DNA of 64,000 bases from Sphaerodactylus townsendi (lineage: Eukaryota): NCBI RefSeq assembly GCF_021028975.2, contig NC_059433.1, forward strand, positions 59,768,001-59,832,000, read 5' to 3'. The notes beneath the pieces were generated by a model that did no database searches, was not told the DNA's origin, and saw nothing but the letters and a program-made list of their open reading frames with translations. Positions 7,743 through 38,600 of this stretch are shown piece after piece. A program made the position numbers and the translations under genes. The first letter of the stretch is position 1. Each line of letters begins with the position of its first letter.

Positions 7743-8570
7743 GTTCTCCACTCTTCCTGTTTATCGTCAGAACAACTCTGTGAGGTAGGTTAGGTGAAAA
7801 GCAATGACTGACCTAAAGTCACTCAGTGAACATGATGGCAGAGTGGGGATTTGAACCCAGGCTTTCCAATTATAGTGTGTCTGACAGTCTGTCCGGGGAC
7901 TCATAATTGCTGCAGTCCTATGTATGCATGCATACTAATGGGCAAGCTCCATTGAAACTCATGTAGCTGACTTCTGAATAAATGTTCAGAGGCACTGCAT
8001 GGTCCTCTCATCTTAGTCACACATTCACTTGGTGGTTTTAGACATGCCACTGTTTTCCTCGGTTCCTTTCCTGCAAAGAAGGGGACCATTATGCTGGCAT
8101 AACTTACATGTCTGTTGTAAGGGTTATTGAGAGATGGATACAGGCATCAGTCTGAACCTGTTGTATGTATAAATGCCAAGAATTTGTAAAATTTTATCTC
8201 TTCTAGACATATTATGATGATAAAAGCTATTTTGATATTAACACGCATTTTATTAAAACACATTGTATGTCCTGCATATGCAGTCTCCAAATTTTACTTG
8301 TATTGTTTTTTACCTTTGAGTGCTCTTCAGTTTTCTTCTTTTTTTCCTCATCTGCCTTATGCAGAGATAGGATCAGCTTTATTTAGCAGAGCTTAACTTA
8401 GGTGGTAAACCAAATAAAAAGGATCATGTTCTGAACTGTCTTCATTTTTTACTTAAGGCATGCATGATGGAATTTAAATTGACCCAAGCAAGGCTGCACA
8501 TTTTGGATCTATACTGCTGACACTTTCTTCATTTTGCTATACTGGGTTCTTTGCCCAAAGAAAACACCCA

Positions 8571-8648
8571 ATGGATTTCAAGGAAAGTTGCCCCAGTGTT
8601 AGCATCCCTAGCTCTGATGAACATAGAGTGAAGAAAAAGAGATTTACA
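8571..8648 (+). CDS. SGK3: SGK3 coding exon 1 ([26 protein letters not shown])
   Basis: ATG at 8571, donor aca|gtaagt; matches recalled human [26 protein letters not shown]. Confidence 0.95.
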
Positions 8649-11600
8649 GTAAGTCTTTAAACATAAACATGTTTGTATCCTTTCATAGTGTGTTGCTATT
8701 GTACTTTGCATGGAACCGGTTGCCAAAGCTAAGGTGTTTGTTGTTGAGTCTTTATACACAGCAGAATAAAAATATGCAACCAACTAGACAATTTTATCAC
8801 ATTTTATATCATTAAAATTTCATGTCAGCATTTGAGATCAAGTATGTGGCTATTATGTACAGTTTGAAATCAGAAAGTTACAACATAGACACATCTTTTA
8901 AAAATCACATTAAACTACACTCTAGGGGACATTTGTCACGATGCTGGGTTTTGTTTTCATGAGTAGAATGTAAATACCTTTGGACTGAGCTCAAGGTTTA
9001 CATCTGTTCTTAGTGGCAGTGGGAAGAAGTCCTCCTTTGTAATCTCTGAAAGGGATAGAACAGTACCTGATAGCAGCCGTAGCAGATGTTATACTTAAAA
9101 TGGCCTGAAGTCCTTTACATACATACATAAAAGGTGTTGGCAAGTGCCTTGACATGAAAGGTGCCCAACTGGCTTATAAATTCCTAAGTCTAGCATGTGC
9201 AGTGTGATGGAGATCCCAGCCTGAGAGTATGCAGTATGCTTTCCAGAACACATTTTTGCTTGCTTAGGCAGGCTGTCATAAATCTTGGACCCAACCAAAA
9301 GTCAATTGCTGAATACACGCAAGGCATCTGCTGCACATTGGGGGCAAATGTGCTTCGCCGCAAGGTTTCTTGTATGGATGTATTTCCTCAAGCCCTGCTT
9401 TCACTTTCTGTTCTCCCTGCCGCAAGTGAGACCACTTCTAGTATGATTTAATTGTGCTTCACAACCAGAGTGGACAGATTTGCTAGTGGGCATAGGTTTG
9501 CTCTGGACCGAAAAAATGGCAAAATATATTTTTAAAATACAAACGTTTCTAGCAGTGGCGTAGGAGGTTAAGAGCTCGTGTAACTAATCTGGAGGAACCA
9601 GGTTTGATTCCCAGCTCTGCCACCTGAGCTGTGGAGGCTTATCTGGGGAATTCAGATTAGCCTATACACTCCAACACACGCCAGCTGGGTGACTTTGGGC
9701 TAGTCACAGCTTCTGGGAGCTCTCTCAGCTCCAAATGAAGCTCAGCTTCATTTTGCTATACTGGGTTCTTTGCCCAAAGAAAACACCCAATGGATTTCAA
9801 GGAAAGTTGCCCCAGTGTTAGCATCCCTAGCTCTGATGTGAAGAAAAAGAAGAAAAGAGTGAAGAAAAAGAGATTTACAATAAGTCTTTAAACATGAGTA
9901 GAATGTAAATACAGGGTGTTTGTTGTGGGGGGGGGGGGGAAGGACAAGGAGATTGTGAGCCCCTTTGAGTCTCCTACAGGAGAGAAAAGGGGGATATAAA
10001 TCCAAACTCTTCTTCTTTTTCTTCTATACTGACTGATACTACATATACATCAGGTTAAGATACACAGTTTGCATGTACTATATGCATAGTGTTTTGTCTT
10101 TCCAAGATGACTTCAGATTGAGAAGTGATGGGAAGTTCAGCCATGAGTGATTTATGTAGTTTCCCCATTGCCAGTGTGTAGTTTCCCCATTCCTTGTGTA
10201 ATTACTGATAAAGCGCAGCAGCAATGAATCTTCCACATGATATGGCAGGACATATCATAGTCACAGGTTTTCGGAGCTCTCTCAGCCCCACCCACCTCAC
10301 AGGGTGTTTGTTGTGAGGGGGGGAAGGGCAAAGAGAATGTAAGCCCCTTTGAGTCTCCTAAAGGAGAGAAAGGGGGGATATAAATCCAAATTCCAACCTC
10401 CTCTTCTTCACATGGCAGGTTTCCCTGCAGTTTATCTGCATCAGATCCCAGCAGTGGCCATCTGCATTCCCTGGGCAACAAGTGAAGCTTTTGCTTTTTA
10501 AAAAATCGGTATTATAATATTGCAATAATATATTATTGGCCAAATACATATGGCAAGGTTCCCGCGATTCAAAGAGTGTTGACCAGGAGACTTTGTTTTG
10601 GAGCATGTTTAGCATTGTTTGTGGCAGGGCAGGCATTACCCATCAGCCGGTTTTTTGCTTTCGTCTGCGGGGGGTGGGGGTGGGGGATGTTTCACAGGTT
10701 CTCTATTGTGTTTATCTTTAAACTTATCAATGGATTTATCTAACAATCTATCAATAGACTGATATATTGACATAAATAAAAGTCTTTGAATACAGAATCT
10801 GTACACTTTGTCTGAACACTGATTGCCTTTTATGGCGGAAAGCAAGGGGGGAATAATGGTGGCATACACACTGCAAAAGGACATCATGAACTACCGTTTG
10901 CTAAGCTCCCCAGGTTCACGATCATCCATCTCTCAATTTGCTGTAAACCCAAGCATCAAGACCGATGGGCTTTTCTCAGTGTGGTGTTTGGATTAATTGA
11001 CTAGTCTTATTTTTTCAGCGTTAGTATCGATTTATCGATTTGTTGATATGGTTATTTATTTTTTTTAAAATCTAAAGATATGCAGAAGGTGGCCATGGGC
11101 AATAGCAATGATATGGCAGGACAAGAAGCAGGAAGTGGTCGGCAACAGGGATTAGGGCGAGGGGAAAGCTTGCAAAGGAGGAAGTGGAGGGTAATACTAG
11201 ATGAGTTGGCTGTGGCCAGAGAGAAGACGTCCAGAGTAGAGTTATGCCCACTGGCACATCTGTCCCTCTCTGGCAGCGAAGCAAAATTAAAATCATACTA
11301 TAAGTGGATTTGCTTGCTGTGGAGAGAATGGAAAGTGAAAGCAGGGCTAGAGAAAATAAGCCCGTACAAGAAAGCTTGCTGTGGCAGACATTCCCCTCTA
11401 CCATGCAGCAAACACCTTGTGCGTAATTGGCCGTTGTTAACAATAGATTTTCCAGCTTTCATTTTGTTAAAAATGATCTCCATCTCCTTCCCTTGCAGGA
11501 AGGAAAAAAGGCATATCTTCACAAAGGAAGGAGCTTGAGTCTTACTTTTTAAAAATGAAAGCTGGGAATTCAGAGCACCTGCTGTACATATTATTACAAT

Positions 11601-14600
11601 GGTATATTGATATTCTAGTGCTGATTCAAAACAAAAACTAAATAGTATTTTGGTGCAAAAGGGAGGAATTGGCTGATGATGGGACAAACTTTCTCATCCA
11701 CATGGCAGCCACCCAGGCTTCACTGTAATCTTTCCCAAAACTTTTCAGCAAAGCAAGTTTGAAAAAGATTAGAGAAAAGTGGGGAAACCCCTGGAGATGC
11801 ACAAATGCATTATGATGCTGTGGGGAGGAGGGCAGGACCACGTCCCAACAGCTTGAGCCTAGAGCAAAACCATGTGGAAATGGCCATGCTGAGTGGATTG
11901 TCATAGGCACACCAGAGGGTTCCAAGCTAAACCAAATGCCAACTTCCTTCTCCTTGAAGTAGCAAAAGAGAAAAATTTTAAAAGATTAAAGATTAGCTTA
12001 CTTTGAGCCAATGAGAGAAAGAATTAAGACTAGGCCAGGCTAATACACAAGAGAATAATTCAAACCAAGCACCTGTGAGACGACCAGAGTATCATCTCAG
12101 TAAGCAGAGATTACTGAACATTCACACCAGTGAAAGTTAGGAAGGAGAGTTGTTTTTAAAAATATCCGGATTTGCTGCCTCAAGCAAGTGCCTGGAAGGA
12201 ACGATATAAATGTTCTAAATAATTTTTTTTTTGTCACTACAGGTTTACAAAGTTTTGGTCTCAGTTGGCAGTAATGAGTGGTTTGTCTTCAGGCGATATG
12301 CTGAGTTTGATAAACTATATAATACAGTAAGTAAACGCAGCTATGCTCCCATTGTTGAGAACTTTTGATGTCCCTCTGCCGCTCAACTGTTGATAGTTCA
12401 CTATGACATCTACGGCACCTATATTCAGTAGTCAGGCTTAATTGTGTGTTGTTTATTACAGCTAAAGAAACAGTTTCCCACGATGAACTTGAAGATTCCT
12501 GCTAAAAGAATATTTGGAGACAATTTTGATCCAGGTAAGTTAAATTGCGAATCAATACATTTATTAGAAAATACGCTGTTGGATTGCACAGACAACAGTA
12601 TGGGAGATTTAATGCTTGTAGTTTAGTCTAAAATTGCCATGTGTACTCTCTGTTTTGTGGCAGAATGGGCTTGCTTTCTCGGCAGGCCCTATTCCACCCC
12701 AAGCCTCTACCAGGGGTTCCCACCTTTTCCTGGAAAGGTCTTGCTTTCTTTCTCTGGGTAAACTACTGCACCACCTGACCGTTTGAGGAACTGCCCTCTG
12801 GGGTGGGTCAGGGCTCCCCAGCCTCCTTTTCCAACACTGAAGCCTACCCTCGGTTTCCCCGGGTTCCACAGGGCAGATTGGAGACCCCACAGGAGTAGCT
12901 GCTTGCCAACTGCCAGCCTTTCTCCTAATCCCCTCCTATTCTGATAGCGCATCCACAACAGTGGAGGCCCAGGTGGTACAGAGAACTGTTCCCAACATCT
13001 AAGGCTCCGAAGTATTTATTAAAAATAAAATAGTCACAAGTATGTTTTAGCACTGCACCAGATTGAGCAGGGGTTTCCAAAACAAATGAGATATAAACGC
13101 AAATCCTCTATCCCTTATTCTAAACGTACCCTAGCAGTTGTTACAAGATGGTGGGCTCTTAAGCTTAGAAGGTTACAATTCTCACAGAGTTCCCATTACC
13201 TGGAAGGCCAAGTCAGCTCCCTAAGTGAGCACATGGTCCAAAAATGGCTGCTCTCTTCAGTGGCAAGAGGTCTACTCCCTTCAGTGGCCCAGCAGAAAGA
13301 GAGCTCACCCCTCTGTTCCCAGCAGTTTTATCAGTTCCCAGGCCCCACCCCGCTCTCAGGGTCAGTCTGAGTTATCTTTTCCCCCTAGGTCAAATATCTC
13401 TTCTTAATGTCCCTCTGGCGTTTTCAAGTTCTCCAAATTTGTGATACCTGCTTGGAGAAGGAGAGGGAAAAAAGTGGGGGAGGGAAGGAAGGAGCCATTT
13501 CCTCACATGGTTTAACAGAGAGATTAGTCACAGTTGGCAGCTCCTTGTGTTCCATAATTTTTTGTGCTTCGCTTTTTCCTCTTGTCTAATATGTGGTAAT
13601 TGTTCTATGCCTAATAAAGGTTTATCTATCTATGTGGTAATTGCAAAAATCTTAAACACAATTGTATTACCAGGCTAAACTCTTTTTTTTATCAAGTCAC
13701 AAATGACTTATGACGATCCCTTGAGGTTTTCAAGCAAGAGACGTTAGAGGTGGTTTGCCATTACCTTCTTCTCTATCACAACCCTGCTATTCCTTGCTGA
13801 TCTCTTCTAAATACTGATCAGGGCTGACCTTGTTTAGCTTCTTAGATCTGACAAGATGGGGCTTACCTGCGCTATCCAGGTCAGAGCAAGCTATACCGTA
13901 TGGCCAAACAAAATCATACTGAGCTACGGTCCTTTCATGTGTTCTCCCTTCCGTATCCTTCCAGCTTGCTTAATTGCTTCCTGTTTTGTGATACCATCTG
14001 TTTTCTCTTGGTGTTCTTTCTGCATCCAAACAAGAACTGATAGTTTACAGTTGTTTACAGGAGAATGAGAGGGCTGAAATACTGTTTTTTCTAACTTTGC
14101 AGCCAGCCACTCATGCTATTATTCTCCTACAGAATACAATAGAATTATGAATGGTGACTGTGAAAAGCAATATTTGACTGCCACTGTCATTTGTAAATAA
14201 ATACAAAGTATGTATAAATGCCATGGACTGTGTTTCACTTTCTTCCCAAAGTCATTTGGAGTTTTTTTTTCAGTTTGAAATTAGTTTATACAAGGTGGTA
14301 ATTAATAAATAAAATTAGTTTATACCAGGTGGAATCACACGGGAGCTTCCACCTGGTGGTAAGGGAGCTATAACCTGTGAGATTCTTGGGGACTCTTGGT
14401 TTCTTTTGTTTTTTTCTGCTCTTCCCCCCTTTCCCTTTCCTATTCCTCCATCATTTGTTTCTCTCCTTTCTTCAAGGTGTGGTGCTAGGGTTTCTAAGCA
14501 ACTCCAGAATTCCTCTGTGATCTTGCATGGTTTCCTGAGTTCTCAGTTGGCATTCTCTGTTGGGGGGCGGGGGCGGGAGAGGGTTAAATTTCTCCCCCTG

Positions 14601-17600
14601 TTTTAATTTTTTGAGATTTTTCTGCAGACTCCTCCGCCCCCTCCAGTTTGTTGAAACTTCTCCCCTGTTCATGCAGACGAGTGGCCAGTTTAAGAATTGG
14701 GTGGAAGAACCATACTAAACATTAGAATGGTTCAAATGGCCCAGCAAAATGTACTGATCAGTTCCCTACACCCCCCAAAAAAAGTTTTGTTTAAATAGCA
14801 AGGAAGAAGACTTCCAGAGTATTACATGATTACTGATGAAGAGTGCCCTAATTTCTCATGTATTCAGGTCTCAGATGACAGCAGAGCTCACCATACCTGC
14901 TGACCAAGAATGAGTCATGTGTCATTTAAACCTTGTAGCTCCTTCCGTCTAGTATTCCTTCTCTTCCCTCTGCTGTTTGATCGGTACTCTGCTTAGATGG
15001 GAAACCATTCTCCATCTTCTTCTGGCTTGATTGGCTGGAAAAACTTGCCCTATTGTCTGCATTTGTGTTGACAGTCATACAAACTCTGATGATCTCTCCC
15101 AAGATTTGCTAGGTAGATAATATGGCATAGCATTAATCAAAAGGTGGGTTGGATATTCCTTCCTTTCTAATAATGTGGTCATGTTTCCTCCACAACTGAG
15201 GTTAAAACACTTTGTGTTTTTCATAGTACTTCACAAAAGCCCAAAGTCCCCTGGTGTGTGAACAGTAATACTTCAATTACAATATGTACTTTTCAATGAC
15301 TTGGATAGAACTATGAAGTGTCTGCAATCAGGAATAAGCTTTCCTGTTCTCAGGCTAGTGCATGGTTTTGTTGTTCTTCTGATTTCTGGGTGATATTTCT
15401 AAAAAGAGGGTTGGAAGAAACAAACTCTATTTTTCTTTTACTAATATTTATATTCCTTTCAGACTTCATTAAACAAAGAAGAGCAGGGCTGAATGAATTC
15501 ATTCAAAATTTAGTACGTCAGCCAGAGCTATGCAATCAGTAAGTATACTTAATTTTTTTTTCATAAGGGACATTTTGGTTAAGCGGATATGTGACATATC
15601 TTATAATAGAACTCTTAATCCACAAATTGCTTCCAAGTGATCCAAATAGGAGAGTCCAATAGTGTATTTATTGCCAGATAATGCACAAAAACAGTAGCTA
15701 GCTAATCATTACCATACCCTTCTAGAGTAAGCACTTGAATTGCTGCTGAAATTATTTTTTTAGTACCCTAAATATGTGTTAATTTTGTGTGTTTGTGCCG
15801 CTTTGGGGACCCTGATTGTGGGAATAGATGGCATAAAAATGTTTTAAATAAACAAATCATGCCTACACGTGTTGAGTGTTGTTTAAACTTTATTAGATGT
15901 AAGGTTATGTTATGGTATTAGAACATTATCTAAATTCTGAAAATAAAACAATTGGTTTCTAGTTCATACAGTGGTAAAAATGTATTAGACTAAAGACCTT
16001 CCTGTAGCTATGAAGCTCCAACTGAGCTAGGTAGAGAGCAGCAGTAACTACTTATCTACTGATAGCAGGATATAGGAAGAATGGAACTCTTCCTGTGTCT
16101 GATTGTCATTCTATATCTAACACCTTTTGTTTTATTATCTGCTTTGCCTGATCATGGCCCTTTCCCGGAAGAGCAGATGGAGTAAAATCCAGCCAAGTTA
16201 CCTTACTGCCGACAGCCTTCAGCCATGCAGAGTGGAAATCATCTATTAAAATTAAGGGGGTTAAATCTTGAGGTAGGAAATTTAGCTTTAGCTAAAAGTT
16301 GAGTGAAACAAGGCATACTCGAACTTCCATTCTGATAATTCCTGTCCTCAATTGCATTTGAAATACAGTGAAGGACTTTCCAGGCAGCTCTTAAGAATAT
16401 TGCCTGAGTGTACTTGCAGGGGTGGGGGGGTATAGAAGTTGAAGATGGCCCTGATTTGGCCCCATATAACAATTGGGTCATTTGATTTAACTTGAAAAAA
16501 GTTTTAGGGCTGCTGGAATAAAGTGTTCACCCTTTGCCCACAAAATTTAATAATATTTAATGCAGACTTTTGCTCAGCATCAGCTGCATAAATATTGTGG
16601 GCTTTCTTTAAACCAGGAGCTTGGAAGTACTTAAGCAGAGATACTTGTTCGATCGGATAGCCATCCAGGCTCCAGGCCCTCTGTTTTGATTTCTTGCCAA
16701 AGGCCATTATTTTCATTTTTTGATAATTAATTGTTAAATGGTCTTCCCTATAGTATTCAGTCAACACCCTTAATTCTTTTCTCAGCCCAACCAGGGTCCT
16801 AGAAAGAACAATGGCATCTTTATCAAACCATTGCTTTGATGACCTCCCCAATCTCTTTCAACTTGAACCAACATCTTATATCAGTAAGGGCTTCAGACTC
16901 TGTAGTAAACTTTGATAAGAGGTTAAGGGACCTTGCTTCGCATTAGATTATATAAATACTTAGCGATACCTTAAACTATTTTTTCCATGCCAAAGCTTTC
17001 TTTACTGTTTCATCAAGCCACGGAAACCATTTGACTCAGTGGCCTACTCAGTGGCCTACTTGATGCACTTGTTACCATATTACATGATGGGACTTCAAAT
17101 AGGATAACCACAAAGGAACAGAGATTTGTATCAAAATGGGGAAACAATCCCCTTCCAAATAAGGTATAATCTGAATTTTTTTTTAACCAGGGGGAGCAAT
17201 AAACCACACACAATCATATAGTCACACTTGACCCTAAACCTGACATGAATATGAGTTCATTGAGATGATCCATACAGAGGTCAGAAACTGGAAGCAGTTA
17301 CAACCCAAATTCAGTTCCTTGGGTCTAAGTATGAGTAAGTGGATCAAAAGACGGAAGTATGTCTGAAGAGGGGCAGTCTCCTGTAGAAGATGGAACCCAA
17401 AAAGGACCATCCAAGCTTCTCATTTCATAGCCATGCCTATTACTGGAATATATTAAATTTATACCTTGTACCGAACCCTGAGATTTTTCCAAAGAAGGTT
17501 CATCACCCTTATTTTCAGATGGTTGATTATTCGAATCATTCAAATTCATCTGCCTTCATGATTCATTCTATGGAATGTGCCGATGACCCTAACAACTTTG

Positions 17601-20600
17601 TCTGTACTGCTAGTTTTCCTGCAGCTCATCAAAACAGTTATTTCAGAAGATTTTTAATAATGCTTTTGCTGTTGTGGTTCATTAATTTTCATTCAGTTAT
17701 ATGCAATTTGGTTGGTGCAGGATTTTTTGGTTTAATTTTAACAATTAATTAGAACAAATCATAACAATAATGTTGAAACTGGTAGAAAGGAAATTGCTTT
17801 TTCTGGTGGAGGTTGCAGATTAATCTATGCCATACAGGTAGAAGGGGAAACATTATTTAAGAGCTGGTAGAGCTAACTGAACAACTATCTGTTTTAATAT
17901 GATTTTTGATTTATAAGATTTATGTCTGTAAGAATTTATAGCAAAATAGAGAGGCTGAAGAAGTGGCATAATTATATCACTCTTTATAATTTATGGGTTT
18001 CATTGTTATTTTTAGCTCAGATGTCAGAGCATTTCTTCAGATGGATAATCCAAAGCACCAGTCTGATCCATCTGAAGATGAGGATGAAAGGAACAGTCAA
18101 AAGGTAACTGATCAGATGGCATCTGCTAGAAGGATAATAGTTGTCTGTTTTAAGAAAAGAGTGAATTATACAAATACTTTCTGCATTGTAAGAGAGCCTG
18201 TCTTTATTTATGCCCCACTTTTCTGCCACTTAGGTCTTCAAGGCATGTTACAAGTAAATTTAGGCAAAGCTGTTTTCAGTCTCAGCAAGGGCAGGCTTCC
18301 ATATGGCAGTTTCCAGTGCTAGAACAGACTGACTCCCTCAACATGCACCATATGTGCCTGCCAAGGGGCATATGTCACTGGTGCAGCCTCAGAAGTAGGG
18401 CAAAGATTGTGTCTTTCTTTGAAGCACCAATTTAATGAACTTATGAAGTCACTAAGCAGGTAACATGCAAATTGGATTTGAAGTGTGACAGGGCTGCTTC
18501 TGTCACATCATTCTATAGACAGTGGACTTGATTGCAATTCAAATCCCCACAAGAGGGGACCTAATGAAATTGTCCTTCTACCCCATTGTTAATTGTGTTA
18601 TGTTACTCAAGAAAGTGAAGCAAGCCCCTGCTTTATCTCATCTGTAATTGTCTTGCAGTTTTAAGGCTGTATTTCACATAATCTCCATCTTTTGATCATT
18701 CAGAATCCATTATGGACCAATTTTTTAAATGTTTCCCTTTGTCTAATGGAGATCTGTGTCCCGTGCACTAGAGCTCCTATGCCCCATAAACAGCTCTGGT
18801 AAAATTATCTTCACAATGAAAAAAAGAGCTAATATGACAACAGTAGCAGCCATTATTTAGGATACTGCTGGTAAAACTTTGGATGAAAAAGGGGGGCAGC
18901 AAGACTAGAGTTCAACAACTCCACACCAGTCAGTAAAATCATAAGCACAGCAGACAGGAAACTTGTGATCCTGTTTTTGGGGGAGGGACGTAGCTCCTTC
19001 ATGACTCCACTCCTTGAATGGAACACTGGGATTCCAAACAACATAGCACACCACTGAACTGGTTTCTCCAAATCTACTCAACTGCTCCCAAGTACTTTCC
19101 CCAGAAGACAGTACCTACAAATAGTTGGTTACAGAGACAGTTGCTGTTACATTGCTACTTTTTCATCATAGATGCCACAGGTGCGTTCATCACTCTCCCA
19201 GTGTTTTTCACATCAGGGGTCCCTCAACATCAATGGGACCCACCGTTCCTCCCCCTTGGGAGGGTTTTAAATTACGGGTTTTTTTGCTGGACGCCGTTTT
19301 ATTGTATTAATTGCTGTTTTAATGGATCTTATGTTTTTATAGCTATAGTTCGTGGAACCCGTGCTATTTATTTGTAATTTATTCACTTGTTTTATTTGCT
19401 CCACCTGTTTTTTTGGGTTTGATTTTGGCTATATTTTGTGGGGGAATTCTTCTGTTGTACACCGCCCAGAGCCCTCAGCGGATAGGGCGGTATATAAATC
19501 TGAATAATAAATAAATAAATAAATAATAGTTCCCCTGATGTCTAGGTTTGGAGATTCATCCCTTGGGAGAAGATTATTACTACGTTTCTGCCACCACCAT
19601 CTTACCTGTGCTCTTACATAAGTGTGCGATACAGAATGATACAGTTCTGTGCAGCATGTCATGATCTTTTGCTTCCCTTCCAAGGTTGTTAAAGGACTGA
19701 GAGTTGCTTTTAGTCTCTCTAGTTACCTTAACATCTGATAGCTCTACTTAATGAGATGATGATAGAAGAAAGCTTGTTCGTTTCTTCAGTAATGTGGATT
19801 TTGCCACATACCAGAAAATAAATTTAGACTTACAAATGACTCTGAGCTCATCTGCCAAGAAAAGATCTTATTACTTCATAATTGCAAAAAATATGTTATC
19901 TTGAGGGCAACCAGGGTAATAGTTACAAAATATATCTTAAGATAAAACAGTTCCAGGAACAAAATGTTTCTTAAATATATTTGTAGTAACTTCCTCACTT
20001 TCAGTGAATTATATAACTACAGATACATACTGTCTCCTAATTGTGATGCATTATTCTTAAACTGTTGAGTAACTGACTGAAGATCAAGAGCCATGCATAA
20101 TCTATCTACAGTCCTGGAATAATCATCCTACTGTGCTACTGAGCATCATAGAGAATTCATGCCATGTGGAAGTAGACTCAGTTTTTATAGCGATCCATAT
20201 GATGCCCTTGCCACCCAATTGAATTCCAGTGTTTTCGGTGGCTTTCCTTCCCCCCTTTTCCTTTTTCGACATCATTTTTTGAATTTAAAAGTTAATTGCA
20301 GTCAATATAGTGTAGATTCACAAAGAGAAACTCAGTCTTCCGACCACTGCTATCCATTCAAAGGTTGCTTTCCTAATTTGATAGTGCTTCTCAGTTTTAC
20401 TCATTATTTCATGTTCACTTACAGTGGTCATGATCATTATTTTGTTATTTTTTGGGAAGCAGAGATATTTTAATTACTGCTTTTATGCAGCCAAGTGATT
20501 GCTCATTGATGTCTTTTCTCACGTTGGTAATTGCACTCTAACAATAAAGGGGCAATTGGTTGGACTGCAAAATGAAAAGCAGTCATTCATACACAGACAT

Positions 20601-23600
20601 ACATCCTGGACAAGAACTGATTAAGAATCAGTTTAGAGTTGTCATGGCCACTGCCAGCAAACAGGGACTAATTAAGTTTTCTCCTTTTGGGGGGGATTAC
20701 TTCTTCCCAGCTTGAGTAGACAGTTAAAAGAGGAAGTAGCATGTATTTTAAAGGAAACATATGACAAGATTTTGTCCATGGGGAGGGGGATTGCTAGATT
20801 TTTTTGAAATGGAAAATAAGAACATAAGAACATAAGAACAAGCCAGCTGGATCAGACCAGAGTCCATCTAGTCCAGCTCTCTGCTACTCGCAGTGGCCCA
20901 CCAGGTGCCTTTGGGAGCTCACATGTAGGATGTGAACGCAATGGCCTTCTGCGGCTGTTGCTCCCGATCACCTGGTCTGTTAAGGCATTTGCAATCTCAG
21001 ATCAAAGAGGATCAAGATTGGTAGCCATAAATCGACTTCTCCTCCATAAATCTGTCCAAGCCCCTTTTAAAGCTATCCAGGTTAGTGGCCATCACCACCT
21101 CCTGTGGCAGCATATTCCAAACACCAATCACACGTTGCGTGAAGAAGTGTTTCCTTTTATTAGTCCTAATTCTTCCCCCCAGCATTTTCAATGAATGCCC
21201 CCTGGTTCTAGTATTGTGAGAAAGAGAGAAAAATTTCTCTCTGTCAACATTTTCTACCCCATGCATAATTTTGTAGACTTCAATCATATCCCCCCTCAGC
21301 CGCCTCCTCTCCAAACTAAAGAGTCCCAAACGCTGCAGCCTCTCCTCATAGGGAAGGTGCTCCAGTCCCTCAATCATCCTTGTTGCCCTTCTTATGTTCT
21401 TATACAATAGCATTGTACCCTGAGTGCTTAGTAGAGCCCCATCCTTGTTGCCCTTCTTATGTTCTTATGTTCTTATACAATAGCATTGTACCCTGAGTGC
21501 TTAGTAGATCCCCATCCCCAATTTTAATTCTACCTGCAGCTGATTATGGAAAAGTCTTCTAGTGTGGAACCAGCTGTAATCTACAAGTATTAGGTTAAAT
21601 GAGTACATCAATAGATTCAAAGATGTACTTCTTAAAAATCAATTAAGAGACCTGCTCAGAAAAGTCATATAGTGAAAGTTCCATGAATCCTTCAGTCTAT
21701 AATAATGATATACCAGTTTCAGACTTTTTTGGTGGGAAAGGGGGAGGGGATCACTTGCTTGGTGGTCTTTTCAATGTAATATCAGAGAGGCAGATATGAT
21801 CTGAAATTGCAATTTTCTAATTAATTAAAAAGGAACCATAATCTTGTGTGAGTTACTTGCTCCAACATCACATAGGTATTGTTACTGGGAAGAGCTGTGG
21901 CTGTGGCTCAGTGGTAAGGTCCCAGAATCATTGGCATTTTCATTTAAAAAGATCAAGTAGTCAGTTAAGTGAAACTTTTCTATTTGAGGCCAGGCTTAGT
22001 GGACAAACTGACCTTGACAGAACAGTTCAGTATAAGGCAGCTTCATGTGTCAAATAAACATATATCAGGGCTTTTTTTTTTTAAGTGAAAGTTACACACT
22101 TCTGTATCAACAAAGCCAACTGGCAAACTTCTTCTAAAGAAATGCTGAATGGTAACATGCAGTTGGTATTTGTTTTCCTCTCTTGCCTCAGCATTTTAGT
22201 ATCTTATCTACATTTAGCTGAATATATTGTTGAGAGCTGTGACTGTCAGTAAATATTACAACAAAAATAGACTAGAGAGACTTGGATCAGACAGTTTTCA
22301 CTAAATTTGCTGAAGAGATTTCTGTAGTTTACTAATCAGTCAGTTTATGGGAGCTTAAAACAGTATGGGATTTTTATATGTAACCTTTGAAGCGTAAATG
22401 AATAGAGTACTCAATATATTTAAATGTATAGTTAATGTTTGCTGAAGTTATTTCCAAATCCTTATCGGTGTTTGTTTTAAGAGTAACTTTTCCTTTGTCT
22501 GTCATGGCTTGTTTTGATGTGATGATGTTAACTTTTCTGGTGGTCACCACAGAAAGCTAAGGCCCTTTCCGCACAGCGGAAAGGGTGCTCCTCCACTGGC
22601 AGGAATTATGCCGGTGGAGGGGAGAGGGCCGTTCGCACGGGAGCGTGCGAGCGGCCCCCGCAGAGACCGCTGCCTCTTCTGCGTCCCCCCACTCACCTCG
22701 TCCTCCAGCGTCGGTCTGGAGGGCTGCAGGGACCCGCCCATGCTGCCCTCCGACCTCCAGGGGTCGGAGGGCAGTGTGGGCGGGTCTCAGCAGCCCTCTA
22801 GACCGATGCTGGAAAACGAGGTGAGTGGGGGGGGGGGGACGGGAAAGCGGCTCCTTCGGCACAGTGCGTTTTGCACTGCGCCGATGGGAGGCCGCCACTT
22901 TCCAAAAACCTCCCTTGGGAAGGGAGGTGGAAAGTGGCGCCTTCACGCCGCTCGGGGCCACACAGGATGGCTGCCCAGGGACCGGATCTGATGATGGTAA
23001 AGCTGCCAGCCACAGATGCAGGCAAAACAGTAGAAAATGCTACTAGAACATGGCCATACAGCCCGGAAACCACACAACACCCTTCATTAATTAACATGAG
23101 AGGGAGCATTATTAATAATAATTACATTGATTTTTTTGGAGACCACCTAAAATCTACAGGAAAGTTCTAACAAATAATATATGTAAAACTTTGATATGAC
23201 TTTTTTTCTCCTCTTCCTTTCAACAGCTAAATTCTACCTCACAGAATATCAACTTGGGACCATCTGGAAATCCTCAGTAGGTTTTAGTTAAATATAAACC
23301 AAATGTAAGATTGACTTTAATTGTTAACCATGAAGTCATTAAACAGCTACTTATTTGCCATTTTGAGTAGTCTGAGAAAGAGAACATTTTCTACTTTAAT
23401 AACAAGAAAATCTCTGTGTCATCTTAGTGGAAAACTATAGTGAAAAGTTGAATCTCTTACAAGTTAGTGCAATAAATACTGAGCAAAACTATTGTAATCA
23501 CACAGTGAAGAGAAATATACAAAAAGTGTGGGGTGGAACGTTTAATATTGAATGGGACAAAAAAAAGGCTAGAATAAGTGATGCCAGACTAGTAAATATA

Positions 23601-26600
23601 AATTGTGATTGTGAGTAAGCACCAAGAATCAAGAAGTGAGAGAGACATCAGAAATATGTTTTATTATTTAAATTATATATTACAGAAATATAATAAAATC
23701 TAGAATAGTGGGTACTGGTCTGACTATTTCGCTGTTGGATATAAAATAAGATCATCCTCTCGACTACCGTAAATGACCTCCTTTATCCTGAATTCCTCCT
23801 AGTGCTAAACCAACAGATTTTGACTTCCTGAAAGTTATTGGGAAGGGAAGCTTTGGCAAGGTATGCTTCATTCTTTATTTATTTGTTTTTATTCCATTCC
23901 ATTCAAGCTTTAATTGTTTGGGGAAATTTTCCTTTCTGCTGGTGATGCAGAGAGAATGTGAACTACATGAAAAGACTGTGAAATAGTGTTTGTTGGCCAA
24001 ATAATGCTCTTCCTGTAGTTTAATGTTTTAGTACCAGAACTGACTGTCATTCTGTATACAAACTCTTTAGGTTCTTCTTGCAAAAAGAAAACTGGATGGG
24101 AAATTCTATGCTGTTAAAGTATTGCAAAAGAAAATTGTTCTCAACAGGAAAGAGGTGAAAGGAAATTAGATATTTTATCTTTCTCTCCAATTCCAAAATG
24201 GTTCCTTTTTACTTATTGACCTTTCACTTCCTTGCAGCAAAAACACATTATGGCTGAACGTAATGTGCTGTTGAAAAATGTGAAACATCCATTTTTAGTG
24301 GGATTGCATTATTCATTCCAAACTACAGAGAAACTTTACTTTGTTCTGGATTTTGTTAATGGAGGGGAGGTAGGTATATATTTGGGTTTCTCTCTCTGGT
24401 GGAAGAATCATGCCTACTAAATTGGCAGAAACAGTTTTTGACACTTAAGACAGAAGTTGTGATAATAAATTCTAGCAAGTGAATGCAAGACTGTTGACCT
24501 TTGTAAAGACCACTGTATTGTTGCACCATATACATGTATTAGCTAGTCTGTTGCTGTGATTCTTGGGGAGGAGTGAGAGGTTAGATTCCTAGCATGTGAT
24601 GCAACCAGTTTTAGTCATCTCATAGCACTTTTTCTTAGCCCTCCCCCCCAAATAGATTTTAAATACAGACTCCAGTTCACTAGTTTATCAATCAGCTGTA
24701 GCTAAAACATGCAGGATTACAGAGGTGACAAAAGGAGGAAACAGCTATAGGAAGGATGTGAATTACTATGCACATAATCTATTCTCGCTGTGTTGATAGC
24801 TGTTCATAGGAAACTTAGCAACATACAGCATATTGCTGAGAGAGATGCTATCAACTGTTATTTTAAGTACCCGTATTAACTGAATCTGTACTTTGCATAT
24901 TTACAGCTCTTCTTTCATTTGCAAAGAGAACGATCCTTTCCTGAACACAGGGCCAGGTTTTATGCTGCTGAAATAGCCAGTGCACTGGGTTACTTACACT
25001 CCATAAATATTGTATACAGGTAACGATTTAGATGATACAGATGGCCACAAACTTAGCATAAACATTTTACTAATGCAATATGCATCTACTTCTGACTCTT
25101 ACAACTAATAGTCTCCTCTTTTACCAAGAGGGCTTATTTCTTTTAAAAAGATTTATACAACAGAGTATTAATCTTGGTTGTGACTATAGCAAGACATTAA
25201 CTTAAGGTTATTATTTTCATAACCAGGGATCTGAAACCAGAGAACATTCTTCTAGATTCAGTGGTAAGCATTACATCTCTCCTATTTTGCCAGAGCTCTG
25301 CAATTACCAGCGTACACACTTTTACAGTATAATCTCTGTTTTCTATGCAGGGACATATTGTGCTAACAGACTTTGGGCTTTGTAAAGAAGGAATGGCTAA
25401 TTCTGACACCACAGCAACCTTTTGTGGGACACCAGAAGTAAGTTGTTCCTTGAAAAGAGATTTGCTTTATTTCACAATGTGTTTGTATGGGGGAGGGACA
25501 CCTATAGAGAGTCAAATTGTTCATTATGTGCAGTTGTATGTTTTTTACTCTGGTTATCTTGCTTTGTACTTAATGGCTGCCATCAGAATGGCTGCCATCA
25601 GAATCCAAACAAGGGGGTAAGAGTTGGAGACAGCTGGATTGGTCCAGAGTAAAATTCAAATGCAGGAACCAAAAGCCACGTAATAACTTTTATTAGGACA
25701 CATTTAAATGTTATCCAACTCTGCAAGTTTTCACATTCTCCAGAACTCTTTCTTGGGCAGGCAGTTAGAAAAAATAGGGGGATGGGGAGCAGATTTTTCA
25801 AGCTATGATATTAATGCCTTTTCTAGTCAGCATCCTTTGTCAATGCTGAACAAGCATACAGATTTACAGCCCAATTCAAATGGGGGAGTAGAATGGACTG
25901 TGGGAGAATTATGGGCCCGCACCAACATGGTTGTCCTCCCCATCAGTGAAAGTGGCATCTCTGCTAGTGGGGAAGGCAAACAGAGCTGCCGGCAGGTAAG
26001 GGCATTCTCAGAGGGAGAACACCAGTGCAGTTGGGGGAGGGCTAGGGGTATTCCTAAGAGTGGAGCTGACAGTAGTCAGCCCAGGAATGTCCTTGGCACA
26101 GGCCAGTAACTTACTCCACAAAAACATGTGACGTAAGTTACTTTTTTCAGTGGAGTTTTCCAGTGGCAGCAAGGTTTTTTTCCACCGCTGCTTGTTGCCC
26201 CGCCCAGAGTTTCATTGGAGGTGATGTGACGCCCCTCCTCCATGCCATCTCCAGCTGCTGCGGATCTCCCAGCATCTGGATTGGGCTGCCCATGTGGAAC
26301 GGTATCTGGTTGTACTTATTGCATACTGGTAGGAAGATGTAAAAAATGGAGTCCTCCCATTATAGCAACAAATCCCAGCATTAGTCCAAGCATATCTTGA
26401 AATCACCTGAAATACACAGATCACTTAAAGGTTGAGGGCAAATTTGATAGTCCTTGAATTAATTGTGCTGGAGATAAATTTTAAATGATATAAAAGATAT
26501 AAACATAAGTTGAAACCAAACCAAAAGCTGGTGTTTTGGTATGACAGTCCCCACCCCACCCTCCAAACCTTGCAAAAGTTGTCGGGTTGTTTCTTGCAGT

Positions 26601-29600
26601 GGGACAGTAATTTGGCATCTTTTCAGTTGGCAAAATGAAATAATTTAGCTGAAAACCAACAGCTCTCCTTTTCAACTAAGTGAAAACAAATTAAGCTCTG
26701 TAAAGGAATGAGTTTAGACTACATATTTTCTTGTATCATAGTTTGTGATTTCAAGAAAGTGGGTTAATTTTTTATTGCATTAGTATCTCCATAAGATCAA
26801 AATGTGACATTACATAGTTAGAACATAATAACAGGATCAGTACAATTACCTGACTATTGGGAATTTAAGACTTCTTTCCATGGGGTTGAGGGTTGAAATG
26901 TGAGTATAGTGGAACCTCGTTTTTTGTTGTCGGTTTTCGTCGGTTTTGGTTTTCATCTATTCTTTCCCTGAAAATTTTGTCTCGGTTTTCGTCATTTGCT
27001 TCGGTTTTCGTCGGCGCGCATGCACTAATTTTGCGACAACAAATTGATACCCATGCATTTCCATTATTTTCCAGTGTTTGCCTCGGTTTTCGTCGGTTTC
27101 GGATTTCACCGAAGTTTCCCAGACAGATTATCGACAAAAACCGAGGTTCCACTGTATAGGAGAGCTATCCTAATGTCAGAATTCTACTCAGGTTTATCCG
27201 GTGGGGCTTACTCCCAAAAAAGCATTTTTAGGATTGCATAAATTTTTCTTGACCAATTTTTCTTCTTCTTAAAGTGATAAAAATCTATTTATAAATTCCA
27301 GTGAGATAGCCATATTAATCAGTTAAAGTGGAAAAGTGTCATAGATCTCAATTTATTGAAGCATAAGTTTCATGGACTAGAGCTCACTTCTTTAGATCCA
27401 TTAAATAGACTCTAGTCCATGAACACTTAGGCTTCAACATATCTATTAGCTTCTAAGATGCAAAAAGATTCCTTTTCATTAATGTTCATGAAGTAGATTA
27501 CTGGATAAAACACCTACAGTGATCCCCTGTTCTAAATGAGACTGTGGGCATCCGGAAATGGTTTATACAATACTTGCTTTTTAACATAATTGCTTGCTCT
27601 TTCTTTTCCTCCTATAGTACCTGGCCCCCGAGGTGATTAGAAAGCAACCGTATGATAACACAGTAGACTGGTGGTGCCTTGGTGCTGTTTTGTATGAAAT
27701 GCTTTATGGTCTGGTAGGTATTTAATGTTTTTCGTACAATATATCTAAAGCAATTTCACAAATGCCAGTTGCTGACAGGCAACAGCAGGGAGGGCTGATG
27801 GTTTCCTGGAAGCATTTGAAGCATATGAACGGTGAGTGTTGTAAACAGGATGCTGGATGCGACAGACTAGATGTTTGATCCAACAGGACAGCTCCTATCT
27901 GCAGTATTAGTAAGAATATGACATCAAAGGTTTCACATATTTGTGAACAAGCTGCAGGTCATATGGCTTTGTCTTGTGTTGCTTTTGGGTACTTCATTGC
28001 TCCAAAACTAACATGACCTTTACTGACTTTCTAGTGGAAACAATGATGTCACATAGCACAGGGGAAACAGACAACTGAAGCAGCAATGATGCTATTCATT
28101 GCTGAATAGAACGGAATAAACTAGAAGAGACTGCCAGTATCAGTGTCCAGGACATTAGCAATACATTCTTGTTTTCCCTTGTCAGGGATGAGCTGACCAT
28201 TTATATCATCAGCAGTTTTCCCGGTGGGCCGATGTTTTGGAAAAGCAGCAGTGGTGAGGGAGAAACTGCTGGCTCTTCACAGCACAGCCTGAAGCTGCAT
28301 GTACTCAGCTTTCATCCAGCTGCCTTTGCATCACTTTTGAAGGAGGTGCTCACCTCGTTCCACTCCCATCGTTTGCCTCCTTCCATCTCCATCTTTTCTT
28401 TTCACTTGTAGTATATTTTTCTTACATTCATGCTGATGAAAGTACTTGTTAATCATGTAACACACATTTTTTGTTTAAAATTGTGAGACAATGAGAATAT
28501 GCTGGCTGAAATAAAAGTTATTAGTAATAAAACAGTAATATAAAACAGATAGAACCCCGTTATGAGTTGGAGACTTCCTACTATTGCCTGGATTGTATTT
28601 TGGAGCACTTCGGTTAGGGTTACTTTCTAGAAGTCAAATATACCCCAGAAAGGGCCTCTTGGCTGAAAGTGTTGTGCCATGTGACCTTGCTTACTTAAAT
28701 ATGACTAATAATCTACTATCCTAGAACATCCTTAGGATGGGTTGCAGTTCAAAAACTACAATTCAGTTAGAAAAATCGGTAAGAGAACCATGTGTTTAAT
28801 CCCAAATCATTAGTCCCCAACAAGAAGATCTGAAAGTACTTTGTAAAATAGAGCTAAATTTCACTGTGAAATAGAGCTAAGCTTTCTATGGAAAGAGCAG
28901 ATACTCATGGAACAAGCCTCTCTTGGCATAAAATTGCTACACTGTATGGATAGTGCAGTCCAATGGCTGCTCATGTTCTTTAAGATGATCTCTAAAGTGA
29001 GCTTTCTTGAATGTTGCATGAAGGATCACTTCAGATTTAGACCTTTTATACCAGAGGTGTTGAACTGAACATATTTATAAGGGCTGGATATGACATAAAT
29101 GTGACTTGATGAGGCCGGGGGTGAGGAGCCTGTCTCGGCTGATTAGCCCGCAGCATGCACACCTGCCCACCCAGATTGGCCTGTGGAATGGCAACCTTGG
29201 CTATCAGCCCAAGTGTGGATTCCCCAGCCCATAATAGCACTGGGGGGTGGCTGCTTCAGCTGGAGAAGCCACAGCAGGCTTGCCAGCCCAGATCAGTATT
29301 GGGGGTGGCTGCCTCAGCTGTAGAGACTGCATTCAATTTGGGGGTGGCTACCTCAATTGTGAAGAGTGGCTAACTTAGAGGGGGGAAGTGGTTGATACTG
29401 GGAGGAGTGGCTGCCACAGCTGGCAATCCCAAGGCAGGCCTGCCAGCCCAGAATGGCACGAGGAGAGATGGTCAACAGTGGGGGGTGGTCTCAGTTGGCA
29501 AGCCTGCCACAGGCTTGCTGTCCTAGTTTGGCACTGGGGGAGGGCTGCCTCAGCTGGTGACCTTGCAGCAGGCTTGCAGATCAGAACACAGGAAGGGTGG

Positions 29601-35690: not shown

Positions 35691-38600
35691 TTGAGGAGGG
35701 CATGAGACAACAATTAATTTGCTACCTGAAGCAAATAATCCCTTGGGCTGGATCCTATATATTGTGCTGCTTGCTGCCTTGGATGAGAATTTCACTTATT
35801 CCCTTCTACCTCTTCTGGTCCTCTATAGATCGTCTGCCTTATTCACAAGGATCCCTGGATTTTAGGGAGCTCAGTAGGCTGCAATTAGGAGGGGTTGTCG
35901 GATAGTTCCATTCCACGAGTGCAACAATACTCATAGTGCATACTATGGTCACAGTAGACTTTTCTCCTTCTCTGTTGCTCACCACCTAAAATTAATCTCC
36001 AGCATTAATTAATTGACTGCTATGGGTTTTTTTCCCCACTGCTCTCAACGTTAAAAGGAAGCTGTGTATTCTGCCTGGTGATATAAGGACATTTGAACAT
36101 TATTTTTGTTGTTATTTGGGGGAGGGGATCTAGGGCAGATCTCCATATTTTGCTTCGAGAAGACCAGGGATGAACTAGACACCAAAACTATTTAAAATCT
36201 GGATATCTGCTCAATATTTCACACAAGGATGCTGTCAAGACAGGGCCTTAAGACCTGGACCTGGAAAATCCCTATTTTTTCTCCCCCTCCCCTTTTTAAA
36301 AACATCCAGCCTGAATGAATTCTGGAGAACTCATAAGCTTGCACACAGTTTTCTGTCATTTGGTTGATCCTAATATATGTTATTGTGTGGCTTCTGGTTT
36401 TGGATTTTGATTTGGACCAATGTAGCTACCTGCAGTCTGGAAGAACAGAAACCCATTTGTTGAAAAACAAAACCTTTTTCTTCAAAGCTATATAAGGCAA
36501 AGAATAGGAATAAGAGGATTTTCATGAAGCCAGGAACGAAGTTTACAACAGGTAGATTATTCATTAGTATTATTCATCACTCTCCTAGGCCTTTATTGGA
36601 CACACACTGTGTACCTATATTACCTTTAACCTTTTTTCCTTCCTAGTATTAATGTCTGGGGTGAAGAACTTCCTACTAGCATAATGGTGCAAGATATTTA
36701 ATTTGTATGGGTATGTTTTTAGTTTGTTAGCTGCTTGGTGGCCCTTATGAGGTGGAAAGGTGGGGTTTAAATTTTATTCAATAAAATACATTCCCTTCTT
36801 ACAATGATCCTGATCTACCTTCTGTGGACCTTTTTAATATTTAAAAATGTTAGTTGATTCAGTTGTGGATCACCCACATAATTTAATGTTTAGGCTTTAG
36901 TGCCAGTGCTATACATGGCTTCCCAATGTGCACATATGCACTAAAACAGTCTGATGGTTTCATATGACAGTTTGCAGGTGAATAGTTTGCTGTCTGTGTA
37001 GGAAAATAGCCATTTTTGAGGTGGTCCTTTGCACTCATATATGGTAAATACATATTGCCTTCAAATGAGTAGATTTTGTACTGGAGGCCTTTCTGGGGGT
37101 TTGGGGGAGATTAGGTTCTGGGGGTTTGGGGGAGATTAGGTTTTTTTCCTTTTACCCACAGGTTGTTGCTATATCACAGATGATTTATGTTGGTCTGCAT
37201 TGAAGGTAGGCTAGTAAAACTTTAGGTAGACTAGTAATGTAGGCATATTCTTGCGATATTGCAATAAAATATTATTTGGATATTTAACAATCTTTTTAAT
37301 TGCACAAAGTTACTTTAGTTTAAGCAAACTATATGATGAAAAGCAAATGCTTTAAAAAGGTTGTTTTTTGTGAGTATTGAATCTGTTTTTCCTACTGCTT
37401 TGCTCCTGTAAATAATCATTATTTACTTTGTTTATCTTGGAATACTTGAAGCTGCCTTACACCAAATCAGTTTAGTTGTCTCCTCTGATTGACAGCAGCT
37501 TTCCAGAAGGTCACTGCAACACCTGCTACCTGAGATCCTTTAACTGGAAATACTGGGAGTAAACCTCGGCCTCCTTCATCAACCATAAGCCTGACTTCCT
37601 TCTAAAATTTACTTGTATGTTCCAGTAACCAAATTTGCAATATGATCTCTAGTGCCTTTTCCTTTTCTGAATTTACCTTGAACATCTGCCATTCCTCATA
37701 CCATAGATAGTAGCACACTTTGTAAGATTTTGAGCTTCTCTTTCTTCATGTGAGAAATTAATGCAGTGGTCTGATAGTTGCTGCATTGACATTTCCTTTC
37801 ATCAGAGTTAGAGTGTAAATTAAGCATTTCCAGTATGGGCCATAGTTTTATTCCTGTATTTCTTAGCATAATCTTATTAAGATTTTGATGAACTCAGTTT
37901 CTGTGGCCTATAAAAGTTCTATTGATATCCCATCTACTTTATGGCCCAGTTTAGATTAGATGGCCTATATGTCCATTTCCAACTCTATTATTCTATGATT
38001 CTAAGGATTACAGAAATCTTAGTGGTTAGTAAGCGTGTGACTCTTAAAATAAAGTGATTTGAGGTAAATGTTATATCTTTGATACCTCACTTTTTTCAGC
38101 TGAAGTGAAAGCTTTCCCTTTGCCAGCCAAACAGTTGTCAGTAAGAACTTCAAGCCAGTGCCACCCGCCTAGTCATAGCCAGAAGTAGATGCCAATCAGA
38201 TTTTAATTTGGCCCCACTATGTTGGAGGTGCCCAGTTGTGGGACAGTTTGACACTCTTCATCCTGTGTCCTCTCTTTTCCCTTCAGCATAAGGCAAGGAA
38301 CTGAAAGCTGCCTAGGCTCCCAGTATCTTTTGGTCTGAGTGAAATAATCGGGCATTTGCAGTAGCAATAATTAAAAGTGTGGGGGACGGGCAAAAGTTTT
38401 CTCAGTAGTATATGCTGTTTTGTGGGGAAAGATACACTTCCTTTGTTCACTGATCAGTAGCTGTTTTAGCTGTAGCAACCTGCTGTTGTCTTATGGTAGT
38501 GTACAGAAGAGAACTATGGTGGAGAAACCCTCTTAATTCCTTCTAGTGTCTTCTCATAGTTAAAGATGTCAAGAGCTACCTCAGAGTCTTCCTGCCAATC

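What the first reader, a model, noticed from the sequence alone, without database searches (positions are those of the whole stretch)
9721..9920. SGK3 start exon re-written into a SINE by multi-step templated insertion
The SINE normally reads ctctcagccccacccacctcacagggtg (see 10279-10306). Here the middle is replaced by a patchwork of about 180 bp. (a) A fold-back palindrome aaatgaagct-c-agcttcattt that reuses the SINE's ctcagct. (b) An exact 92-bp copy of 8527-8618, including the SGK3 ATG. (c) A stuttered tgaagaaaaagaagaaa. (d) The exon end and intron start, with the donor changed from GT to AT. (e) A jump at a 'cat' microhomology to about 8961-8977. (f) A return to the SINE at 'ac'. Intronic sequence is included, so the template was local DNA or unspliced RNA, not mRNA. 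Iterative microhomology switches with snap-back are the recognised signature of polymerase-theta end joining or MMBIR. This looks like a recent exon duplication caught in progress.
Basis: partly seen in the sequence, partly recalled or inferred. Interest (0 to 1): 0.75.

Follow-up and report, generated by a model that had tools for sequence, protein, structure and literature searches.

The report
DNA-repair patchwork inside lizard SINE
A 177-base patch stitched from pieces of the SGK3 gene's own start exon and intron, copied from about a kilobase away, sits inside a short repeat element of a lizard genome; it is likely the scar of one error-prone DNA break repair, of a kind already catalogued in other vertebrates, and is predicted not to work as an exon.

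Summary
Bases 9734-9910 replace about 8 nt of a Squam3-like SINE in the intron after the SGK3 start-codon exon. They parse into 9 local pieces (controls need at least 22): a 93-nt exact copy of 8527-8619, three passes over the purine run, exon end plus intron start with the donor G changed to A, and 8958-8977, joined at 1-4 nt microhomologies, plus a fold-back. Public contigs from two samples of the best-matching organism carry 9809-9938 with no difference at near single-copy depth, so the centre is neither an assembly artefact nor a mobilised chimera. The left junction was not covered. Two close relatives show no junction contig, but an empty orthologous SINE was not shown. Size (177 nt), donor distance (1.2 kb), host transposon, microhomology, deletion and filler match the repair-mediated duplications of Pace et al. 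2009, in their rarer two-donor form. The 93-nt tract and kilobase reach fit polymerase theta alone poorly. 'Exon duplication in progress' is overstated: the copy lacks the predicted acceptor and its donor is dead. One curiosity: it stays in frame and its only substitution hits that donor. Known kind; low interest.

The parts
8571..34424 (+). SGK3 coding region, 16 exons, open 490-aa frame; the patch lies in the intron between 8648 and the next exon at 12243
8458..8648 (+). SGK3 start-codon exon (ATG at 8571, donor after 8648); the acceptor at 8458 is predicted from a small weight matrix, not from RNA
8527..8664 (+). Donor 1: 3' part of the exon plus 16 nt of intron, intact in all four laid runs
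8958..8977 (+). Donor 2: 20 nt of intron
9551..9733 (+). Host SINE, 5' part (Squam3B-like by eye; very high copy number); its left flank junction is held by a contig 9390-9575 in run X1
9716..9732 (+). 6-bp hairpin in the host SINE whose foot is the left breakpoint; it needs T at 9730, which 4 of 5 other window copies lack
9733..9742 (-). Inverted filler: reverse complement of the new SINE-exon junction 9744-9753 (fold-back); not covered by any laid contig
9741..9747 (+). 7-nt repeat of the SINE end 9724-9730; a 7-mer recurs within 30 nt at 681 of 63,890 positions
9746..9838 (+). 93-nt exact copy of 8527-8619, with the copied ATG at 9790
9838..9859 (+). Stutter: two extra passes over the purine run 8628-8641, one with an A lost
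9856..9895 (+). Copy of 8625-8664 (exon end and intron start); single substitution G>A at 9880, the donor +1 base
9893..9912 (+). Copy of 8958-8977, entered at a 3-nt and left at a 2-nt microhomology
9911..10025 (+). Host SINE, 3' part with CTT-type tail

Best explanation
The patch is a single-copy mosaic of nearby SGK3 DNA inside an older SINE, likely left by one germline double-strand break that was repaired by repeated rounds of microhomology-primed copying (a repair-mediated duplication), and it is predicted to be inert. Shown: the pieces, their sources, 1-4 nt overlaps at the joints, loss of about 8 SINE bases, no target-site duplication or poly(A), and presence of the central part in two samples. 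Inferred route: the break fell in the SINE near 9733, perhaps at the foot of a small hairpin. The right-hand end (bottom strand, 3' end pointing left) paired at 2 nt with top-strand DNA at 8977, copied 20 nt, re-primed at CAT (8664), slipped twice in the purine run, ran 93 nt to 8527, re-primed on the SINE end (9724-9730), folded back on the joint it had just made, and was joined at 9733. The direction follows from the inverted piece, which is a copy of a joint that exists only once the right-hand pieces are made. The long tracts more likely came from a processive SDSA/MMBIR-type step and the short filler from polymerase-theta-type end joining; no enzyme is shown. About 0.9 that it is a real repair scar, about 0.65 for this DNA-templated route.
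For: Parse and controls: 9 pieces against 22 or more in 292 of 292 controls. Four unambiguous joints overlap by 2, 1, 3, 2 nt against a chance mean of 0.74, P about 0.03. Contig 9809-9938 with 0 differences in X1 and X2; the source contig breaks exactly at 8619 in both and runs unbroken in X4 and X5. Depth of the contig holding the shared 93 nt is 77.6 and 32.8; a separate copy predicts 78.5 and 36.7, two alleles of one locus 134.9 and 59.5. Age: the host differs from window copies at 91 of 721 aligned sites (12.6% pairwise, about 6% per copy), the patch at 1 of about 152; P = 0.0006 if equally old. Class match: published repair-mediated duplications average 162 bp, peak about 1,200 bp from the donor, interrupt transposons, and microhomology + deletion + filler is the commonest breakpoint type (10 of 39) (PMC2671141); here 177 nt and 1,219 nt. 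Direct pieces from the opposite resected end and inverted pieces from hairpins are the two classes described for templated insertions (PMC7165422). Inertness: donor ATAAGT, no native acceptor.
Against: The left junction, on which the direction argument rests, is covered by no laid contig (bin 9762-9793 holds only the source contig in X1 and X2). An empty orthologous SINE was not seen: X4 and X5 have no cover at 10050-10200 and only partial cover at 9506-9537, so absence there may be a later deletion or a filter hole. The predicted nascent strand is paired at its 3' end with probability only 0.02 at 9741-9742 and 0.46 at 9739, so the fold-back needed weak priming or one more slip. Short pieces (7-10 nt) were assigned after the fact. 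The SINE age estimate rests on five local copies and may be inflated by subfamily structure. X1 may be the sample the window came from, and X1 and X2 belong to one study.
Confidence: 0.65

Rival explanations
1. Replication-fork template switching (FoSTeS/MMBIR or serial slippage) without a two-ended break: a stalled strand at the SINE hairpin hopped among nearby templates and returned.
For: [quoted passage not shown] The breakpoint sits at a hairpin foot. Stutter in a purine run.
Against: Top-strand growth would have to write the inverted piece before the joint it mirrors existed. No flanking copy-number change is seen in the window. The sequence alone cannot fully separate this from the best explanation.
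Confidence: 0.14
2. Polymerase theta made the whole patch.
For: Short microhomologies, direct plus inverted pieces, slippage and several rounds are its hallmarks; insertions up to 157 bp were seen, the longer ones from several rounds (PMC7165422); patchwork inserts from abortive rounds (PMC8654963).
Against: Tracts are rarely over 10 bp, about 85% start within 10 bp of the break, with about 1 error in 30 nt in C. elegans (PMC5068794). Here: 93 nt without error, donors 756-1206 nt away.
Confidence: 0.08
3. The template was the nascent, unspliced SGK3 transcript, reverse-transcribed onto the right-hand break end.
For: All long pieces are sense-strand, upstream in the same transcription unit, and the inferred growing strand is the one that pairs with the RNA. 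Transcript-templated break repair is reported in human cells (PMC12065846, abstract), and experimental templated insertions are enriched for transcribed sequence (PMC5110952).
Against: Resected top-strand DNA predicts the same orientation, so the gain in odds is only about two- to fourfold (inference). No splice junction, poly(A) or target-site duplication. The fold-back piece needs a DNA template.
Confidence: 0.07
4. Assembly or amplification artefact, in whole or for the left junction only.
For: Fold-backs and short jumps also arise in amplified libraries (recalled, no call). The left junction is unconfirmed.
Against: Identical 130-nt junction contig in two samples at 0.70-0.82 of source depth. 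A separate copy must have a left entry into the 93-nt repeat, yet the source contig shows no branch there, so that edge was pruned whatever its letters are (inference).
Confidence: 0.04
5. Chimera formed during SINE insertion by reverse-transcriptase template switching, or a mobilised chimeric SINE subfamily.
For: The pieces have the same orientation as the SINE, and both SINE halves are kept.
Against: The patch is far younger than its host. The junction contig has single-copy depth while SINE parts reach summed depths above 10^7.
Confidence: 0.02

Closest known systems
Repair-mediated duplications (RDs), Pace, Sen, Batzer and Feschotte 2009, PMC2671141 (main text parts 1-5 of 8 and passages read; Table S1 not read); they overlap the 'doublets' of Thomas et al. 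as cited there (not read)
   Same: Insert of 50 nt or more interrupting a transposon, donor within 5 kb (1.2 kb, their peak), length near their mean of 162 bp, microhomology + short deletion + filler, no poly(A) or target-site duplication, donor intact. Chimeric two-donor cases (20 of 1,136; both donors within 3.5 kb in 5) and partial exon/intron donors (4 of 824) are in their set.
   Different: More switches than their two-donor examples (stutter and fold-back); a squamate, whereas their survey covered mammals, chicken and zebrafish; the empty site here comes from paralogous SINE copies, not from an ortholog.
Templated insertions of polymerase-theta-mediated end joining / SD-MMEJ (PMC7165422, PMC5068794, PMC8654963; passages read)
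   Same: 1-4 nt priming, several rounds, direct and inverted pieces, slippage.
   Different: Tract length (93 nt) and donor distance (0.75-1.2 kb) lie far outside the typical 3-30 bp and 10-15 bp ranges.
FoSTeS/MMBIR junction inserts (PMC5120786; passages read)
   Same: Iterative template switches, inserts of hundreds of bases from several nearby loci.
   Different: There they sit at junctions of large rearrangements; here the insert stands alone with about 8 nt lost.
Class 2 templated sequence insertion polymorphisms (PMC5110952; parts 1-2 of 4 read)
   Same: Germline break patch without target-site duplication or poly(A), similar size.
   Different: Defined by a distant donor; here the donors are local.

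Membership tests
Repair-mediated duplication (Pace 2009) | Insertion of at least 50 bp interrupting a transposon whose two halves are contiguous in the consensus | tested here: met
   177 nt between 9733 and 9911, about 8 nt missing against five window copies
Repair-mediated duplication (Pace 2009) | Donor intact, more than 50 bp and less than 5 kb away | tested here: met
   1,219 and 935 nt; donors intact
Repair-mediated duplication (Pace 2009) | Only one other copy in the genome | tested here: inconclusive
   No genome held; one copy in the window; contig depths fit one extra copy
Repair-mediated duplication (Pace 2009) | Microhomology, deletion and/or filler at breakpoints; no poly(A/T) tail or target-site duplication | tested here: met
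   longest A or T run in the insert is 5, internal and copied from the donor
Repair-mediated duplication (Pace 2009) | Empty orthologous site in a relative | tested here: inconclusive
   X4 and X5 list no junction contig but also lack cover of the right flank; Pace accept a consensus comparison where no ortholog is available
Polymerase-theta templated insertion | Short tracts (3-30 bp) templated within about 10-50 bp of the break | tested here: not met
   93-nt tract, donors 756-1206 nt away; only the 7-10 nt filler fits
Polymerase-theta templated insertion | 1-4 nt microhomology at switches; direct and inverted pieces | tested here: met
Polymerase-theta templated insertion | Genetic dependence on POLQ | not testable with these tools
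   historic germline event
Functional duplicated exon | Usable acceptor and donor | tested here: not met
   Donor +1 is A; native acceptor not copied; SINE AG at 9727-9728 scores 4.2, below 13 of the 15 real acceptors in leave-one-out scoring
Functional duplicated exon | Inclusion in transcripts | not tested
   No RNA run of organism A was listed; none was laid
Squam3 SINE (host) | tRNA-type head, CORE-like body, CTT tail, 218-271 nt | tested here: inconclusive
   Head and body motifs match Squam3B consensus rows by eye (PMC7983390 supplement 1, part 1 of 2); the window family has an extra block of about 55 nt absent from the 51 rows seen; no formal alignment
Class 2 TSIP | Donor at a distant locus | tested here: not met
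   donors within 1.3 kb

The most novel reading that the evidence does not exclude
A germline break was patched by repeated reverse transcription of the nascent SGK3 pre-mRNA, creating in one step an in-frame rival start exon (SINE-supplied acceptor, copied ATG, four extra residues that lengthen the basic stretch), and the allele spread only because one base change silenced the copied splice donor: a fossil of RNA-templated repair and of selection filtering a newborn exon.
Probability: 0.05. Interest if true: 0.6.

Novelty: new member of a known kind. Interest (0 to 1): 0.2.

Why it matters
As one locus it changes little: such patches number 824 in the human genome and occur in every vertebrate surveyed by Pace et al. 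It is a clean teaching case, because the order of synthesis can be read from the sequence and because it joins a long, distant tract with theta-like filler in one event. I found no squamate example in print (searches; limited library, weak claim). The one point worth carrying forward is statistical: if copied splice donors in such patches are mutated more often than neighbouring bases, or donors lie upstream in the transcript more often than chance, that would show selection on newborn exons or RNA templating. One case cannot show either.

Tried and rejected
No genome is held for this window, so a genome-wide BLAST of the insert and a search for the ortholog were not possible. 4 of 24 listed runs were laid; shares of the other 20 are not used as evidence. 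Missing cover at 10050-10200 in X4 and X5 and at the left junction in X1 and X2 is not taken as absence. The idea that the junction contig is a deletion allele of the source locus was rejected on depth. A first microhomology simulation over 8 joints (P about 0.003) was dropped, because short pieces were chosen after the fact and one value was miscounted; the 4-joint version (P about 0.03) is used. A first SINE divergence figure (28 of 247) was inflated by a misaligned block at 9576-9593 and replaced. The in-frame net +12 nt is not treated as evidence of function (1 in 3 by chance). The splice matrices rest on 15 sites each and are rough. Earlier scan notes by place and by sequence returned nothing. 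Paper searches gave nothing useful. Table S1 of PMC2671141 (chimeric cases) was not read and may hold equally complex examples.

Full report
Observation. Between 9733 and 9911 a SINE that elsewhere reads straight through (five window copies) has lost about 8 nt and gained 177. From left to right the gain is: an inverted piece (9733-9742, the reverse complement of 9744-9753); a 7-nt repeat of the SINE end (9741-9747 = 9724-9730); 93 nt exactly equal to 8527-8619; 9838-9850 = 8628-8640; 9849-9859 = 8630-8641 with one A lost; 9856-9895 = 8625-8664 with one substitution, G>A at 9880; and 9893-9912 = 8958-8977. A greedy parse against DNA within 2 kb needs 9 pieces, where 292 of 292 control stretches need 22 or more. 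The four joints between unambiguous pieces overlap by 2, 1, 3 and 2 nt, against 0.74 by chance (P about 0.03). There is no target-site duplication and no poly(A).

Setting. The source exon encodes the SGK3 N-terminus (24 of 26 residues equal to PDB 1xtn; best hits are gecko SGK3 proteins). Sixteen GT-AG exons from 8571 to 34424 give an open 490-residue protein, so the gene is intact. The host is a very high-copy SINE whose head and body match Squam3B consensus rows by eye, with an extra block of about 55 nt (PMC7983390: part 1 of 4, passages, and supplement 1 part 1 of 2). The animal is a squamate, probably a gecko (inference from these calls).

Is it real? No genome is held. Of 24 runs listed I laid four on 9250-10200. 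In both runs of organism A (X1, X2; two samples, one study; X1 may be the source sample) a 130-nt contig covers 9809-9938 without a difference, and the contig of the source locus breaks exactly at 8619, where source and copy part. By the tool's 31-letter rule this contig bridges the stutter, the G>A and the CAT jump; it is one letter short at 9838 and a few short at the return to the SINE. Its depth is 0.82 and 0.70 of the source contig. The contig holding the shared 93 nt has depth 77.6 and 32.8, as a separate copy predicts (78.5, 36.7) and two alleles of one locus do not (134.9, 59.5). So the centre is a real, single-copy insertion, probably homozygous in both animals. No contig covers the left junction. 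A separate copy must enter the repeat somewhere, yet the source contig shows no branch, so that edge next to the high-depth SINE was evidently pruned; this is inference, and the palindrome stays unconfirmed. In organisms B and C (X4, X5) the source contig runs unbroken and no junction contig is listed. Neither run covers 10050-10200, however, so an empty orthologous SINE was not shown, and a later deletion between the two neighbouring SINE copies is possible.

Age. The host differs from other window copies at 91 of 721 aligned sites (12.6% pairwise, about 6% per copy); the patch differs from its donors at 1 of about 152 (P = 0.0006 if equally old; 95% upper bound 3.6%). The patch is therefore younger than the SINE, unless subfamily structure inflates the SINE figure. 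This argues against a chimera made when the SINE inserted.

Mechanism (inferred). All long pieces come from the left flank in direct orientation, and the one inverted piece mirrors a joint that did not exist before the event. The simplest order is growth of the bottom strand from the right-hand break end on exposed top-strand DNA: prime at 8977, copy 20 nt, re-prime at 8664, slip twice in the purine run, run 93 nt to 8527, re-prime on the SINE end, fold back, join at 9733. Direct pieces from the opposite end and inverted pieces from hairpins are the two classes described for templated insertions (PMC7165422, passages). The fold-back would have needed weak priming: the predicted 3' end is paired with probability 0.02 at 9741-9742, 0.46 at 9739 and 0.89 or more from 9737. 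The left breakpoint lies at the foot of a 6-bp hairpin of the host SINE (9716-9732). Polymerase theta fits the short filler but not the whole: its tracts are 3-30 bp and rarely over 10, and about 85% start within 10 bp of the break with about 1 error in 30 nt in C. elegans (PMC5068794, passages). A processive SDSA- or MMBIR-type step finished by end joining fits better; theta acting on failed SDSA intermediates is proposed in PMC8654963 (passages). Fork switching (PMC5120786, passages) and a nascent-RNA template (PMC12065846, abstract; PMC5110952, parts 1-2 of 4) are not excluded.

Function. The copy begins about 69 nt inside the exon, after the best predicted acceptor (8458), and its donor reads AT. 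It keeps the SGK3 frame from the copied ATG at 9790 to 9879 with a net gain of 12 nt, a 1-in-3 chance. The SINE offers a weak-to-moderate acceptor just before 9729 (score 4.2, below 13 of 15 real acceptors). With an intact donor, inclusion after the real exon would shift the frame and stop early. The only substitution falls on the donor's invariant G, about 1.3% by chance. That is suggestive of selection, but it was noticed after the fact and among many scanned windows. No RNA was examined.

Comparison. Pace et al. 2009 (PMC2671141; parts 1-5 of 8 and passages) found 824 human insertions of this design by looking for interrupted transposons: mean 162 bp, donor distance peaking near 1,200 bp, microhomology + deletion + filler in 10 of 39 inspected, two-donor chimeras in 20 of 1,136, partial exon/intron donors in 4 of 824, with further cases in chicken and zebrafish. 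This locus (177 nt, 1,219 nt) meets every defining feature I could test; genome-wide uniqueness and the empty ortholog remain inconclusive. It is at the complex end of the class. Eight earlier scan notes on similar local exon copies in other genomes (AI notes, not checked) suggest the scan meets this class often.

Verdict. Observation confirmed; interpretation partly supported; a new, rather intricate member of a known kind; interest 0.2.

Noticed in passing
window:9790-9879: The copied exon stays in the SGK3 frame (net +12 nt, giving a longer lysine-rich stretch), and its sole substitution hits the donor +1 base at 9880.
   Followed up: partly
window:10050-10200 and 9506-9537: Runs of organisms B and C (X4, X5) have no cover of the spacer between the host SINE and the truncated SINE at 10258-10400, and only partial cover left of the host; a deletion in those lineages or a filter hole. 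Unexplained.
   Followed up: no
window:8665-9249: The contig of organism B is a net 21 nt shorter across this intron stretch than the window; organism C is colinear.
   Followed up: no
window:9716-9732: The host SINE forms a 6-bp hairpin ending at the left breakpoint; it depends on T at 9730, which may be an old variant (one other copy has it) or itself a fold-back product.
   Followed up: partly
window:51659-51749, 21375-21517, 38641-38700, 37091-37142: Four recent short tandem or near-tandem duplications (47, about 70, 28 and 27 nt); the one at 21375 has an internal stutter.
   Followed up: no
window:7083-7228, 31733-31879, 45414-45512, 22685-22832, 62276-62453, 56555-56772: Palindromic, MITE-like elements of 100-220 nt; the first three belong to one family.
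   Followed up: no
window:9625-9680 (and copies at 31.3, 32.5 and 35.5 kb): The local SINE family carries a block of about 55 nt not present in the 51 Squam3 consensus rows seen; possibly an undescribed Squam3B-related subfamily (by eye).
   Followed up: partly
window:8440-8448: The 9-mer that starts the copied tract at 8527 also occurs in the pyrimidine tract of the predicted acceptor, so the 8-nt core of the inverted filler has two possible older sources besides the new joint.
   Followed up: partly
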